Below, one piece after another: positions 52,373 to 57,900 of a stretch of DNA of 64,000 nucleotides (positions are counted from its first letter, which is position 1; each line of letters begins with the position of its first letter). Both the position numbers and the translations under genes were made by a program. The stretch is from the human T2T-CHM13v2.0 reference genome, Homo sapiens. The notes under the pieces were generated by a model. It was not told where the DNA came from, ran no database searches, and worked only from the letters and a program-made list of their open reading frames with translations. Location: the NCBI RefSeq assembly GCF_009914755.1, contig NC_060926.1; one strand, 5' to 3'.

Positions 52373-54406
52373 CAGGCAAGATAAAGAAATAAAGGATATT
52401 CAATTAGGGAAAGAGGAAGTTAAATTGTCCCTGTTTGCAGATGACATGATTGTATATTTAGAAAACCCCATTGTCTCAGCCCAAAATCTCCTTAAGCTGA
52501 TAAGCAACTTCAGCAAAGTCTCAGGATATAAAATCAATGTGCAAAAATCACAAGCATTCCTTCACACCAATAACAGACAAACAGAGAGCCAAATCATGAG
52601 TGAACTCCCATTCACAATTGCTTCAAAGAGAATAAAATACCTAGGAATCCAACTTACAAGGGATGTGAAGGACCTCTTCAAGGAGAACTACAAACCACTG
52701 CTCAAGGAAATAAAAGAGGATACAAACAAATGGAAGAACATTCCATGCTCATGGATAGGAAGAATCAATATTGTGAAAATGGCCATACTGCCCAAGGTAA
52801 TTTATAGATTCAATGCCATCCCCATCAAGCTACCAATGCATTTCTTCACAGAATTGGAAAAAACTACTTTAGAGTTCATATGGAACCAAACAAGAGCCTG
52901 CATTGCCAAGACAATCCTAAGCAAAAAGAACAAAGCTGGAGGCATCACACTACCTGACTTCAAACTATACTACAAGGCTACAGTAACCAAAACAGCATGG
53001 TACTGGTACCAAAACAGAGATATAGATCAATGGAACAGAACAGAGCCCTCAGAAATAACGCCACATACCTACAACTATCTGATCTTTGACAAACCTGAGA
53101 AAAACAAGCAATGGGGAAAGGATTCCCTATTTAATAAATGGTGCTGGGAAAACTGGCTAGCCATATGTAGAAAGCTGAAACTGGATCCCTTCCTTACACC
53201 TTATAGAAAAATCAATTCAAGATGGATTAAAGATTTAAACGTTAGACCTAAAACCATAAAAACCCTAGAAGAAAACCTAGGCATTACCATTCAGGACATA
53301 GGCGTGGGCAAGGACTTCATGTCCAAAACACCAAAAGCAATGGCAACCAAAGCCAAAATTGACAAATGGGATCTAATTAAACTAAAGAGCTTCTGCACAG
53401 CAAAAGAAACTACCATCAGAGTGAACAGGCAACCTACAAAATGGGAGAAAATTTTCGCAACCTACTCATCTGACAAAGGGCTAATATCCAGAATCTACAA
53501 TGAACTCAAACAAATTTACAAGAAAAAAACAAACAACCCCATCAAAAAGTGGGCGAAGGACATGAACAGACACTTCTCAAAAGAAGACATTTATGCAGCC
53601 AAAAAATACATGAAAAAATGCTCATCATCACTGGCCATCAGAGAAATGCAAATCAAAACCACTATGAGATATCATCTCATACCAGTTAGAATGGCAATCA
53701 TTAAAAAGTCAGGAAACAACAGGTGCTGGAGAGGATGTGGAGAAATAGGAACACTTTGACACTGTTGGTGGGACTGTAAACTAGTTCAACCATTGTGGAA
53801 GTCAGTGTGGTGATTCCTCAGGGATCTAGAACTAGAAATACCATTTGACCCAGCCATCCCATTACTGGGCATATACCCAAAGAATTATAAATCATGCTGC
53901 TATAAAGACACATGCACATGTATGTTTATTGCGGCACTATTCACAATAGCAAAGACTTGGAACCAACCCAAATGTCCAACAATGATAGACTGGATTAAGA
54001 AAATGTGGCACATATACACCATGGAATACTATGCAGCCATAAAAAAGGATGAGTTCATGTCCTTTGTAGGGTCATGGATGAAGCTGGAAACCATCATTCT
54101 CAGCAAACTATCACAAGGACAGAAAACCAAACACCACATGTTCTCACTCATAGGTGGGAATTGAACAATGAGAACACTTGCACACAGGAAGGGGAAATCA
54201 TACACTGGGGCCTGTCGTGGGGTTGGGGGAGGGTGGAGGGATAGCATTAGGAGATATACCTAATGTAAATGAAGAGTTAATGGGTGCAGCACACCAACAT
54301 GACATGTATATACATATGTAACAAACCTGCACGTTGTGCACATGTACCATAGAACTTAAAGTATAATAATAATAAAAAATAAAATAAAATAAAAACAAAA
54401 AAAGAC
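52373..54406 (+). mobile_element. 5'-truncated L1PA4-PA6-like element with an internal L1PA2-type tract (mosaic)
   Basis: ORF2 3' half, 3' UTR and A tail; TSD AACAAGATTAGA at 52361-52372 and 54407-54418; older-type 3' UTR (GCATTAGGAG, AATGTAAATG, TTAATGGG). Confidence 0.96.
52425..54164 (+). pseudogene. ORF2: L1 ORF2 fragment (RT FADD motif to C-terminus) with stops at 53757-53759 and 53811-53813
   Basis: [13 protein letters not shown]...GEIGTL* and MFIAALFTIAKTWNQPKCP...IGGN. Confidence 0.93.
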
Positions 54407-54994
54407 AACAAGATTAGAAATATTTTCATTGCTACATGACTTACAGAAGGAAAAGCTGTATGTCACTACAGAAATTCAGATTTATGCAGTCAAATCTAGA
54501 AAAAACTTTCTAATCTGTTTTGAAATCTTCCAAATGAAGAGTTTCAATTTTTTTTAACCAATCAGTTAAAAATATTTAAAAATCAGCATATTCTGATTAA
54601 TTAAAAATAAAACTAAATGACCTCCAAGAATATGAAAACTTACCAGCCAAATTCTGGTAAAAAATATTACATGATTGATGGATGACATTTAAAAATGAGT
54701 ACTATAGCTTAGAAAGCACAGTCCTAGATACACGTCTTTCATTTGAATCTACGCATCTTTGTTTTTGTTTTTTTGTTTTTTTTTTTTTTATTATACTTTA
54801 AGTTTTAGGGTACGTGTGCACATTGTGCAGGTTAGTTACATATGTATACATGTGCCATGCTGGTGCGCTGCACCCACTAACTCGTCATCTAGCATTAGGT
54901 ATATCTCCCAATGCTATCCCTCCCCCCTCCCCCGACCCCACCACAGTCCCCAGAGTGTGATATTCCCCTTCCTGTGTCCATGTGATCTCATTGT

Positions 54995-57900
54995 TCAATT
55001 CCCACCTATGAGTGAGAATATGCGGTGTTTGGTTTTTTGTTCTTGCGATAGTTTACTGAGAATGATGGTTTCCAATTTCATCCATGTCCCTACAAAGGAC
55101 ATGAACTCATCATTTTTTATGGCTGCATAGTATTCCATGGTGTATATCTGCCACATTTTCTTAATCCAGTCTATCATTGTTGGACATTTGGGTTGGTTCC
55201 AAGTCTTTGCTATTGTGAATAATGCCGCAATAAACATACGTGTGCATGTGTCTTTATAGCAGCATGATTTATAGTCCTTTGGGTATATACCCAGTAATGG
55301 GATGGCTGGGTCAAATGGTATTTCTAGTTCTAGATCCCTGAGGAATCACCACACTGACTTCCACAATGGTTGAACTAGTTTACAGTCCCACCAACAGTGT
55401 CAAAGTGTTCCTATTTCTCCACATCCTCTCCAGCACCTGTTGTTTCCTGACTTTTTAATGATTGCCATTCTAACTGGTGTGAGATGATATCTCATAGTGG
55501 TTTTGATTTGCATTTCTCTGATGGCCAGTGATGATGAGCATTTTTTCATGTATTTTTTGGCTGCATAAATGTCTTCTTTTGAGAAGTGTCTGTTCATGTC
55601 CTTCGCCCACTTTTTGATGGGGTTGTTTGTTTTTTTCTTGTAAATTTGTTTGAGTTCATTGTAGATTCTGGATATTAGCCCTTTGTCAGATGAGTAGGTT
55701 GCGAAAATTTTCTCCCATTTTGTAGGTTGCCTGTTCACTCTGATGGTAGTTTCTTTTGCTGTGCAGAAGCTCTTTAGTTTAATTAGATCCCATTTGTCAA
55801 TTTTGGCTTTGGTTGCCATTGCTTTTGGTGTTTTGGACATGAAGTCCTTGCCCACGCTTATGTCCTGAATGGTAATGCCTAGGTTTTCTTCTAGGGTTTT
55901 TATGGTTTTAGGTCTAACGTTTAAATCTTTAATCCATCTTGAATTGATTTTTCTATAAGGTGTAAGGAAGGGATCCAGTTTCAGCTTTCTACATATGGCT
56001 AGCCAGTTTTCCAACCACCATTTATTAAATAGGGAATCCTTTCCCCATTGCTTGTTTTTCTCAGGTTTGTCAAAGATCAGATAGTTGTAGGTATGTGGCG
56101 TTATTTCTGAGGGCTCTGTTCTGTTCCATTGATCTATATCTCTGTTTTGGTACCAGTACCATGCTGTTTTGGTTACTGTAGCCTTGTAGTATAGTTTGAA
56201 GTCAGGTAGTGTGATGCCTCCAGCTTTGTTCTTTTGGCTTAGGATTGACTTGGCGATGCGGGCTCTTGTTTGGTTCCATATGAACTTTAAAGTAGTTTTT
56301 TCCAATTCTGTGAAGAAAGTCATTGGTAGCTTGATGGGGATGGCATTGAATCTGTAAATTACCTTGGGCAGTATGGCCATTTTCATGACATTGATTCTTC
56401 CTACCCATGAGCATGGAATGTTCTTCCATTTGTTTGTGTCCTCTTTTATTTCCTTGAGCAGTGGTTTGTAGTTCTCCTTGAAGAGGTCCTTCACATCCCT
56501 TGTAAGTTGGATTCCTAGGTATTTTATTCTCTTTGAAGCAATTGTGAATGGGAGTTCACTCATGATTTGGCTCTCTGTTTGTCTGTTGTTGGTGTATAAG
56601 AATGCTTGTGATTTTTGTACATTGATTTTGTATCCTGAGACTTTGCTGAAGTTGCTTATCAGCTTAAGGAGATTTTGGGCTGAGACGATGGGGTTTTCTA
56701 GATAAACAATCATGTCGTCTGCAAACAGGGACAATTTAACTTCCTCTTTTCCTGATTGAATACCCTTTATTTCCTTCTCCTGCCTGATTGCCCTGGCCAG
56801 AACTTCCAACACTATGTTGAATAGGAGCAGTGAGAGAGGGCATCCCTGTCTTGTGCCAGTTTTCAAAGGGAATGCTTCCAGTTTTTGCCCATTCAGTATG
56901 ATATTGGCTGTGGGTTTGTCATAGATAGCTCTTATTATTTTGAAATACGTCCCATCAATACCTAATTTATTGAGAGTTTTTAGCATGAAGGGTTGTTGAA
57001 TTTTGTCAAAGGCTTTTTCTGCATCTATTGAGATAATCATGTGGTTTTTGTCTTTGGCTCTGTTTATATGCTGGATTACATTTATTGATTTGCGTATATT
57101 GAACCAGCCTTGCATCCCAGAGATGAAGCCCACTTGATCATGGTGGATAAGGTTTTTGATGTGCTGCTGGATTCGGTTTGCCAGTATTTTATTGAGGATT
57201 TTTGCATCAATGTTCATCAAGGATATTGGTCTAAAATTCTCTTTTTTGGTTGTGTCTCTACCCGGCTTTGGTATCAGAATGATGCTGGCCTCATAAAATG
57301 AGTTAGGGAGGATTCCCTCTTTTTCTATTGATTGGAATAGTTTCAGAAGGAATGGTACCAGTTCCTCCTTGTACCTCTGGTAGAATTCGGCTGTGAATCC
57401 ATCTGGTCCTGGACTCTTTTTGGTTGGTAAACTATTGATTATTGCCACAATTTCAGCTCCTGTTATTGGTCTATTCAGAGATTCAACTTCTTCCTGGTTT
57501 AGTCTTGGGAGAGTGTATGTGTCGAGGAATGTATCCATTTCTTCTAGATTTTCTAGTTTATTTGCGTAGAGGTGTTTGTAGTATTCTCTGATGGTAGTTT
57601 GTATGTCTGTGGGATCGGTGGTGATATCCCCTTTATCATTTTTTATTGTGTCTATTTGATTCTTCTCTCTTTTTTTCTTTATTAGTCTTGCTAGCGGTCT
57701 ATCAATTTTGTTGATGCTTTCAAAAAAACAGCTCCTGGATTCATTGATTTTTTGAAGTGTTTTTTGTGTCTCTATTTCCTTCAGTTCTGCTCTGATTTTA
57801 GTTATTTTTTGCCTTCTGCTAGCTTTTGAATGTGTTTGCTCTTGCTTTTCTAGTACTTTTAATTGTGATGTTAGGGTGTCAATTTTGGATCTTTCCTGCT

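What the first reader, a model, noticed from the sequence alone, without database searches (positions are those of the whole stretch)
52373..56790. Arm-to-arm gene conversion in a palindrome formed by two independently inserted L1s
Seen: an older truncated L1 (+, 52373-54406) and a young full-length L1PA2 (-, 54762-60808) lie tail-to-tail ~350 bp apart, giving ~2 kb inverted arms. By manual alignment, 52924-53869 matches the reverse complement of 55290-56235 with only 4 mismatches (53144, 53146, 53301, 53680). The flanks differ much more (roughly 25 differences in 52381-52923, many in the 3' UTR). The tract carries young-subfamily bases (GATTTAAAC, GGCGTGGGC, ATGTCCAAA, ACTATGAGATATC). Both copies share non-consensus changes: TAT-AGA (53206), GCAACCAAA (53348), AAATAC (53607), the same TTA>TGA stop (53758/55401) and the same CGA>TGA stop (53811/55348). 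Each L1 still has its own matching TSD pair, so a single NAHR inversion of the spacer does not explain it. Inference: non-allelic conversion from the young into the old copy, resembling palindrome-arm conversion, giving an old-young-old mosaic.
Basis: partly seen in the sequence, partly recalled or inferred. Interest (0 to 1): 0.85.

Follow-up and report, generated by a model that had tools for sequence, protein, structure and literature searches.

The report
Gene conversion between neighbouring inverted L1s
About 0.9 kb in the middle of an old, truncated L1 retrotransposon was overwritten with sequence from a younger L1 lying 330 bases away in the opposite orientation; this is a clear example of an already known repair process, not a new kind of event.

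Summary
The + L1 (A, 52373-54406) and the - L1 (B, 54762-60808) each have their own target-site duplication. Against rc(B), A differs at 29 of 551 sites (52373-52923), 4 of 946 (52924-53869) and 16 of 295 (rest of ORF2). The binomial P for so few tract differences is 1e-17.

I compared both arms with 56 other L1 copies from the same genome. A carries the older-subfamily base at 9 of 9 and 7 of 7 marker sites in its flanks, and the young base at 22 of 22 in the tract. B is young at all 38. Among the 40 scored of 4,944 genome candidates, B is the closest match to A's tract: 4 differences against 8 or more.

Non-crossover, non-allelic gene conversion from B into A is therefore well supported, at about 0.85.

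- The shared TGA stop is not private. The same 17-mer occurs 299 times in the genome.
- Two other "non-consensus" bases are sub-lineage variants.
- The likeness to palindrome-arm conversion is one of geometry only.

New points:
- Two rare alleles shared outside the tract suggest further small exchange patches.
- Some rare L1 variants cluster by region among separate insertions. This is unexplained.

Transposon gene conversion is a known kind of event, so interest is moderate.

The parts
52361..52372 (+). 5' target-site duplication of L1 copy A (AACAAGATTAGA)
   Evidence: Read; the same 12 bases follow A's A-rich tail at 54407-54418.
52373..54406 (+). L1 copy A. It is 5'-truncated, starts at ORF2 residue ~680 and runs to the A-rich tail. 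Its flanks belong to an older subfamily.
   Evidence: ORF2p alignment to residues 679-1274 of chain 9k6g_A. A carries the older base at 9/9 and 7/7 flank marker sites. Its nearest genomic copies are only 95-96% (5' flank) and 92-95% (3' flank) identical.
52924..53869 (+). Converted tract in A. These are the maximal limits; the minimal limits are 52949-53811.
   Evidence: 4 of 946 differences from B. Young base at 22/22 marker sites between 52949 and 53672. Shared rare alleles at 53206 and 53758 and a shared CpG change at 53811.
54407..54418 (+). 3' target-site duplication of A
54419..54746 (.). Unique spacer of 328 bp between the two insertions
   Evidence: It has no homology to L1 and lies between A's 3' duplication and B's duplication.
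54747..54761 (-). Target-site duplication of B next to its poly(A) tail, which reads poly(T) on the + strand (ATCTACGCATCTTTG)
   Evidence: the same 15 bases occur at 60809-60823.
54762..60808 (-). L1 copy B. It is full length (6,047 bp) and young. ORF1 is open; ORF2 is interrupted by two TGA codons.
   Evidence: ORFs. ORF2p aligns over residues 4-1275 of chain 8uw3_A. B is young at 38/38 marker sites. It has 18 private changes in 2,741 nt, within the range of 10-26 seen in 28 young copies.
55290..56235 (-). Donor segment in B that corresponds to the tract
   Evidence: B's private-change density here is 5/946, against 13/1795 elsewhere.
60809..60823 (-). Target-site duplication of B at its 5' end
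52891..52891 (+). Shared rare allele (C) outside the tract, paired with 56268 in B. Possibly a separate micro-patch of exchange.
   Evidence: 0 of 55 panel copies carry it. The 17-mer occurs 54 times in the genome, all dispersed except A/B and one other pair. Four A/B differences (52899-52923) separate it from the tract.
52421..52421 (+). Second shared rare allele (T) outside the tract, paired with 56738 in B
   Evidence: 1 of 54 panel copies carries it. It lies between A/B differences at 52409 and 52442.
53757..53759 (+). In-frame TGA shared with B (55400-55402)
   Evidence: It is not private: 299 exact 17-mers occur genome-wide.
53811..53813 (+). In-frame TGA shared with B (55346-55348), at a CpG site
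   Evidence: The T allele is present in 8 of 56 panel copies.

Best explanation
Two L1s inserted independently, tail to tail and 328 bp apart. First came an older, 5'-truncated copy (A, + strand). Later came a young full-length copy (B, - strand).

After B had acquired some changes of its own, a break or gap in A's ORF2 region was repaired using B as template, on the same chromatid or on the sister. The repair ended without a crossover, most simply by synthesis-dependent strand annealing. Between 0.81 and 0.95 kb of A (52924/52949 to 53811/53869) was replaced by B's sequence, and B was left unchanged.

Since then 4 substitutions have accumulated in the tract, 3 in B and 1 in A.

Shown here: the mosaic, the direction of transfer, the independent insertions, the absence of a crossover, and B as the closest sequence found.

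Inferred: the break-and-repair route, the timing (roughly the last third to half of B's residence, perhaps 2-5 million years), and that the two shared rare alleles outside the tract are further small patches.
For: 1. Differences drop from 5.3% in both ORF2 flanks to 0.42% in the tract. P = 1e-17, and 0 of 100,000 permutations reach it.

2. Markers were scored against 28 young and 28 older genomic copies. A is old at 9/9, young at 22/22 and old at 7/7. B is young at 38/38.

3. The tract region is not intrinsically conserved. Among the 28 copies nearest A's 5' flank, differences from B in the tract run from 13 to 89 of 946; the 19 of them with older-type flanks differ at 46-89.

4. The transfer was non-reciprocal. 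B's private-change density in the tract (5/946) equals that outside it (13/1795), and B's total lies within the range of other young copies.

5. The donor is the neighbour.
- B scores best of the 40 scored among 4,944 candidates: 4 differences against 8-12 for the next 28.
- A and B share an 8-site minority haplotype, of which no panel copy has more than 2 sites.
- The 52891 C allele is carried at only 52 other sites in the genome.

6. Each L1 keeps its own matched duplication, so the number of crossovers was zero or even.

7. Of the 4 tract differences, 3 are B-private and 1 is A-private, as expected for mutations arising after the transfer.

8. Precedent in print:
- Partial replacement of old Alus by young ones (PMC8230782, passages read).
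- Higher conversion rates between Alus less than 10 kb apart (PMC6598467, passages).
- An intrachromosomal conversion inside an L1, and L1-templated break repair (PMC1920257, passages).
- Homologous recombination between inverted L1 pairs giving inversions (PMC9675761, passages).
Against: - Only one assembly was examined. No reads, no second human haplotype and no ape orthologue could be checked.
- Only 40 of 4,944 candidates were scored, so a still closer donor elsewhere is not strictly excluded.
- The most striking shared change, the TGA at 53758, is common in this chromosomal region (31 of 33 chromosome 2 sites lie at 205-229 Mb). It therefore carries little weight.
- The TGA at 53811 is a recurrent CpG change.
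- A and B were only about 95% alike before the event. That level of identity is expected to disfavour homologous repair (general knowledge, not tested).
- The marker set for the flanks was defined partly from A's own alleles, which is circular for the 16 flank sites. It is not circular for the 22 tract sites.
Confidence: 0.85

Rival explanations
1. The conversion was coupled to B's insertion. The nascent cDNA of B, or B immediately after integration, served as template to repair A 330 bp away. In that case every shared variant was already present in B's source RNA.
For: - B's non-shared private density in the tract (3/946) is about the same as in its A-homologous flanks (3-4 of 846), so little time need have passed between insertion and transfer.
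- The shared alleles at 53348 and 53607 are sub-lineage variants.
- cDNA-mediated conversion is described for yeast Ty and Tf2 (PMC6598467, passage).
Against: - The source RNA would have had to carry two in-frame stops in ORF2. That argues against normal mobilisation in cis (established L1 biology, recalled).
- None of the 28 closest young copies carries the 53758 allele, and only 2 of the 28 carry the 53811 allele.
Confidence: 0.07
2. Assembly or polishing artefact: reads from one arm were used to correct the other arm in T2T-CHM13.
For: Only one assembly was seen. Inverted repeats are places where reads can be misplaced.
Against: - The tract is not identical between the arms. There are 4 differences, split 3 to 1 as private changes.
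- The boundaries are sharp, and both flanks keep about 5% divergence.
- The arms are 2 kb long with a 0.33 kb spacer, far shorter than the long reads used for such assemblies (general knowledge, not tested).
Confidence: 0.03
3. A was born a recombinant, or its tract came from some other young L1 rather than from B. The resemblance to B would then be a coincidence of sub-lineage.
For: - Many young copies are 99% identical to the tract.
- Recombinant full-length L1s exist: 35 of 2,267 in PMC13192797 (methods passage read).
Against: - B is the best of the 40 scored among 4,944 candidates and lies 330 bp away.
- The 8-site shared haplotype is unique among 58 sequences.
- A and B also share the rare 52891 and 52421 alleles outside the tract. 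The chance of 2 of B's 4 rare flank alleles coinciding with A's is about 2e-4.
Confidence: 0.03
4. Two successive crossovers between the arms (a double inversion) swapped the middle segments.
For: - Inverted L1 pairs do mediate inversions by homologous recombination (PMC9675761, passages).
- The duplications are compatible with an even number of crossovers.
Against: A reciprocal swap would leave an old-type segment inside B and keep the two middle segments about 5% apart. In fact B is young at 22/22 tract markers and the segments differ at 4 of 946 sites.
Confidence: 0.01

Closest known systems
Non-allelic gene conversion between dispersed transposable elements (Alu-Alu conversion: Kass et al. 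1995, and Aleshin and Zhi 2010, as cited in PMC6598467; genome-wide screen in PMC8230782)
   Same: An old element keeps its flanks, while part of its interior takes on the marker bases of a younger subfamily. Young-to-old is the commoner direction. Proximity (<10 kb) favours the event.
   Different: - This case involves L1, not Alu.
- The tract is 0.8-0.95 kb, longer than a whole Alu.
- The donor can be named, and it lies 330 bp away in inverted orientation.
- Two nonsense codons were carried across.
L1-templated break repair and intrachromosomal conversion within L1s (Tremblay et al. 2000, as cited in PMC1920257; locus NCLI34 in PMC1920257)
   Same: A chromosomal L1 is repaired from another L1, which yields an internal patch of foreign L1 sequence.
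   Different: Those cases come from a cell-culture assay or had a donor far away on the chromosome. Here the event is germline-fixed in the one assembly seen, and the donor is the adjacent copy.
Arm-to-arm conversion in sex-chromosome palindromes (recalled; review PMC3308322 seen only in a search listing)
   Same: Inverted arms lie on one chromatid with a short spacer, and non-reciprocal transfer occurs between the arms.
   Different: Palindrome arms arise by duplication and are kept nearly identical along their whole length by recurrent conversion. These arms arose by two separate insertions, are 96% alike, and show one main tract covering under half of the arm.
L1-mediated inversions by recombination between inverted L1 pairs (PMC9675761)
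   Same: The substrate is the same: opposite-orientation L1s with high similarity (median 97.1% in that study).
   Different: That outcome is a crossover, which inverts the intervening DNA and produces single-switch chimeras. Here there was no crossover, there are two switch points, and the spacer and duplications are in place.

Membership tests
Non-allelic (interlocus) gene conversion | Non-reciprocal: the recipient becomes like the donor and the donor is unchanged | tested here: met
   A is young at 22/22 tract markers and B is young at 38/38. B's private density is 5/946 inside the tract and 13/1795 outside it.
Non-allelic (interlocus) gene conversion | The tract is bounded on both sides by unconverted recipient sequence | tested here: met
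   A is old at 9/9 markers upstream and 7/7 downstream. Divergence is 5.3% on both sides.
Non-allelic (interlocus) gene conversion | No exchange of flanking DNA | tested here: met
   Each L1 has its own matched target-site duplication pair.
Non-allelic (interlocus) gene conversion | The donor is identified by variants shared beyond subfamily markers | tested here: met
   The shared 8-site haplotype has at most 2 of its 8 sites in any of 57 panel rows. B is the top match of the 40 scored. The 52891 C allele is rare genome-wide.
Non-allelic (interlocus) gene conversion | The ancestral (unconverted) state is seen at the orthologous locus | not testable with these tools
Palindrome with arm-to-arm concerted evolution | The arms were made by duplication and are kept near-identical over their whole length | tested here: not met
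   The two insertions have separate duplications. The arms are 95.96% identical. Only 946 of about 2,030 nt are homogenised.
Palindrome with arm-to-arm concerted evolution | Recurrent conversion | tested here: inconclusive
   Two extra shared rare alleles outside the tract (52421, 52891) hint at more than one patch. They could also belong to a single discontinuous event.
L1-mediated inversion (crossover between inverted L1s) | Single-switch chimeric L1s with exchanged flanks and an inverted spacer | tested here: not met
   There are two switch points in A and none in B, and the duplications remain matched.
Twin-primed or 5'-inverted L1 insertion | One insertion with one duplication pair, whose inverted part covers a different L1 interval from the same RNA | tested here: not met
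   Both arms cover the same L1 interval (ORF2 residue ~680 to the tail). There are two tails and two duplication pairs.

The most novel reading that the evidence does not exclude
The event in this window may be the youngest visible case of a widespread process: DNA-level sequence exchange among L1 copies that lie near each other.

Three of the five rare ORF2 variants I probed genome-wide occur as dispersed singletons plus regional clusters. One of them is a nonsense codon that an autonomous lineage could not carry.

In one cluster, six copies within 90 kb share further rare variants. Four of them were checked and have unrelated flanks.

If this is local conversion, L1s in L1-dense regions evolve partly in concert. 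Divergence-based L1 ages and subfamily calls in those regions would then be biased.
Probability: 0.25. Interest if true: 0.7.

Novelty: new member of a known kind. Interest (0 to 1): 0.38.

Why it matters
- It is a clean case, with the donor identified, of a transposon being partly 'rejuvenated' by its neighbour. About 0.9 kb of an old L1 now looks roughly as young as the donor copy. Ages and subfamily calls based on divergence would be wrong for this copy.
- It shows that two L1s only about 95% alike and 0.33 kb apart can recombine without inverting the spacer.
- It gives a locus where the timing and population frequency of such an event can be read directly from ape and human pangenome assemblies.
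- The event changes no gene. None is annotated in the window, and PAX3 lies 105 kb away according to the hub's table.

Tried and rejected
- A recombination-hotspot motif (CCNCCNTNNCCNC, recalled) has 5 matches in the window, none within 52373-56790. This was uninformative.
- A single inversion is rejected because each L1 keeps its own matched duplications.
- A double inversion is rejected because the exchange is non-reciprocal.
- Twin priming is rejected because there are two tails, two duplication pairs and the same L1 interval in both arms.
- Low divergence through conservation of this ORF2 stretch is rejected. Among the 28 copies nearest A's 5' flank, differences from B in the tract run from 13 to 89 of 946; the 19 older-type ones differ at 46-89.
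- I first took the TGA at 53758 for a private marker. That was dropped.
- For the regional clusters, segmental duplication is rejected for the four copies checked. Homology stops about 90 nt into the fetched pieces, at the L1 end, and the 5' flanks of two copies do not match.
- Recent conversion among the cluster copies is not supported, since they differ pairwise at 17-27 of about 615 sites.
- Aleshin and Zhi 2010 is not held.
- Nine paper searches found no description of this locus, and none of regional sharing of rare variants among L1s. Most subscription papers are not in that library. Myers 2002, Vincent 2003 and Rozen 2003 are recalled only and were not seen.
- Supplements of PMC13192797, which list recombinant L1 loci, were not opened. 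They might include copy B.
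Full report
**The structure**

The window (human chromosome 2 according to the hub's table, with no gene annotated) holds two L1s tail to tail.

- Copy A (+, 52373-54406) is 5'-truncated. Its translation aligns with residues 679-1274 of a solved human ORF2p chain. 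It is flanked by AACAAGATTAGA at 52361-52372 and 54407-54418.
- Copy B (-, 54762-60808, 6,047 bp) is full length. ORF1 is open, and ORF2 aligns over residues 4-1275 of chain 8uw3_A but is interrupted by two TGA codons. It is flanked by ATCTACGCATCTTTG at 54747-54761 and 60809-60823.
- A 328-bp unique spacer (54419-54746) separates the two.

So these are two separate insertions that happen to form about 2 kb inverted arms. The arms are 97% complementary over 1824 nt and 95.96% identical over 2029 nt.

**The observation**

Region 52924-53869 against the reverse complement of 55290-56235 has 4 mismatches, at 53144, 53146, 53301 and 53680.

A full alignment gives 29 differences in 551 nt upstream, 16 in the 295 nt of ORF2 downstream, and 32 in 236 columns of the 3' UTR. 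Both ORF2 flanks are therefore at 5.3% and the tract is at 0.42%.

At the flank rate 50 differences are expected in the tract. Binomial P(<=4) is 1.2e-17 and Fisher P is 3.7e-11. In 100,000 random placements of the 49 ORF2 differences, none gave a 946-nt stretch with <=4 differences; the longest was 782.

**Other copies for comparison**

No L1 reference sequences were available, so I took copies from the window's own genome.

- A search with the tract gave 4,944 candidates, of which 40 were scored. A scored 1707 bits against itself, B 1689, and the next best 1671.
- A search with A's 5' flank found nothing better than 96%.
- A search with A's 3' flank found nothing better than 95% (no loci were cut for that search).

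This gave a panel of 28 'young' copies (L003-L030) and 28 'older' copies (L032-L060 without L047, which is the same copy as L021).

- In the tract the young copies differ from A at 8-12 sites and from B at 10-15.
- In A's flanks the young copies differ from A at 24-38 of 551 and 15-21 of 295 sites, but from B at only 6-24 and 1-9. These ranges leave out L003 and L013, whose fetched pieces do not span the flank concerned.
- The 28 copies nearest A's 5' flank differ from B at 13-89 of 946 tract sites. The 19 of them with older-type flanks differ at 46-89, so this stretch is not simply slow to change.

**The mosaic**

I defined marker sites as those where at least 85% of the young panel and at least 70% of a 19-copy older subset disagree. 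The older subset was chosen on flank sites only.

- A carries the older base at 9 of 9 sites between 52385 and 52911.
- A carries the young base at 22 of 22 sites between 52949 and 53672.
- A carries the older base at 7 of 7 sites between 53885 and 54140.
- B is young at all 38.

The flank result is partly circular, because A's own alleles helped define the 16 flank sites. The 22 tract sites are independent of A.

The breakpoints lie in 52924-52949 and in 53812-53869.

**Direction and reciprocity**

B has 18 private changes (alleles seen in at most 1 of the young panel) in 2,741 nt. Five fall in the 946 nt of the tract and 13 in the other 1,795 nt. The total lies within the 10-26 range of the 28 young copies. 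B's tract is therefore ordinary B sequence.

Only A changed, so the transfer was non-reciprocal, from B to A. A double crossover would have put old sequence into B, and it did not.

Of the 4 tract differences, 3 are private to B and 1 is private to A. That fits mutations arising after the transfer.

**Is the neighbour the donor?**

A and B share minority alleles at eight sites: 52421, 52891, 53063, 53206, 53348, 53607, 53758 and 53811. None of the 57 panel rows has more than 2 of the 8. B is also the best match found genome-wide.

- The TGA at 53757-59, which aligns with a Leu of solved ORF2p in both arms, is not private. The 61-mer around it has at least 38 other exact copies. The 17-mer occurs 299 times, against 17,470 for the common allele.
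- The second TGA, at 53811-13, is a CpG change present in 8 of 56 panel copies.
- 53348 (4 of 56) and 53607 (9 of 56) are sub-lineage variants.
- 53206 is rare: 1 of 56 in the panel, and 5 other exact 61-mers in the genome.

**Exchange outside the tract (new)**

Two shared rare alleles lie outside the main tract.

- 52891 C is carried by 0 of 55 panel copies. Its 17-mer occurs 54 times genome-wide, all dispersed except A/B and one other pair 108 kb apart.
- 52421 T is carried by 1 of 54 panel copies.

Each sits between sites where A and B still differ. The chance that 2 of B's 4 rare alleles in that flank coincide with A's 10 rare alleles is about 2e-4. So either the event left a discontinuous tract or there were further very short exchanges. 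Their direction is unknown.

**Mechanism and timing (inferred)**

The simplest route has four steps:
1. A break in A.
2. Invasion of B, on the same chromatid folded back or on the sister.
3. Copying of 0.8-0.95 kb.
4. Return without a crossover.

Two of B's five private tract changes are shared with A. The four later differences amount to 0.21% per lineage, against 0.66% for B as a whole. This places the event in roughly the last third to last half of B's residence.

With commonly used rates (recalled) that is some 2-5 million years ago, with wide error. It may therefore be specific to the human lineage.

Conversion at the moment of B's insertion cannot be excluded. It would require a source RNA already carrying two ORF2 stops.

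**Comparison with what is known**

Partial replacement of old Alus by younger ones is well documented. One screen found 98 loci, with young-to-old the commoner direction (PMC8230782, passages read). Conversion is elevated between Alus less than 10 kb apart (PMC6598467, passage citing Aleshin and Zhi 2010, which I could not open).

For L1 specifically:
- An intrachromosomal conversion inside an L1 is described, and L1-templated break repair is cited, in PMC1920257 (passages).
- Recombinant full-length L1s are screened out in PMC13192797 (35 of 2,267; methods passage).
- Inverted L1 pairs of median 97.1% similarity give inversions by homologous recombination (PMC9675761, passages).

This locus is the non-crossover counterpart of that last process. 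It is a new, well-resolved member of a known kind.

It is not a palindrome in the sex-chromosome sense. The arms were not made by duplication, are 96% alike, and are homogenised over less than half their length.

**Noticed in passing and unexplained**

Three of the five rare variants probed are strongly clustered by region.

- The 53758 G allele: 31 of its 33 chromosome 2 sites lie at 205-229 Mb. There are further clusters on chromosome 3 at 67-75 and 83-90 Mb.
- A control variant of the same mutation class (53778 C, 242 sites) has only 3 of 19 chromosome 2 sites in that interval, but has clusters of its own elsewhere.
- A third variant (53513 C, 153 sites) has 8 sites, all on the + strand, within chromosome 2 209.14-209.71 Mb.
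- In contrast, 52891 C (54 sites) and B's private 55858 allele (6 sites) are dispersed.

Six G-bearing copies lie within 90 kb.

- Five of them differ pairwise at 17-27 of about 615 sites. The sixth is truncated.
- The 3' flanks of the four checked are unrelated, as are the 5' flanks of two.
- They nevertheless share further rare variants that G copies elsewhere lack.

Because G creates a stop codon, an autonomous sub-lineage is an unlikely explanation. Old local exchange between neighbouring L1s is my best guess, but it is not shown.

**Verdict**

This is an ordinary kind of event in a very clear example. Interest is 0.38.

Noticed in passing
window 53758 (and 55401); genome sites listed; loci L061-L076: Rare L1 ORF2 variants cluster by region among separate insertions. 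The nonsense allele G at 53758 occurs 299 times, against 17,470 for the common allele. On chromosome 2, 31 of its 33 sites lie at 205-229 Mb. Variants 53778 C (242 sites) and 53513 C (153 sites) show clusters of their own. Variants 52891 C (54 sites) and the 55858 allele (6 sites) do not. Six clustered copies share further rare variants although the four checked have unrelated flanks.
   Followed up: partly
window 52421/56738 and 52891/56268: Two rare alleles are shared by both arms outside the main tract. Each lies between sites where the arms still differ. This points to a discontinuous tract or to extra micro-exchanges of unknown direction.
   Followed up: partly
loci L017 and L026 (same chromosome, 87 kb apart, opposite strands): Two of the 28 copies closest to the tract are neighbours of each other and share the rare 53778 C allele. 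Their homology is confined to the L1 itself (98.76%, against 98.4-98.6% to an unlinked copy), so they are separate insertions. A similar pair sharing 53206 G lies 84 kb apart on another chromosome.
   Followed up: partly
window 56013-56015 (B): B has two private substitutions 2 bp apart, which change two adjacent ORF2 residues. This is probably one multi-nucleotide mutation arising after the transfer.
   Followed up: no
locus L075 2338-3108: An older L1 fragment with an internal inversion, of twin-priming type, lies beside one of the clustered copies.
   Followed up: no
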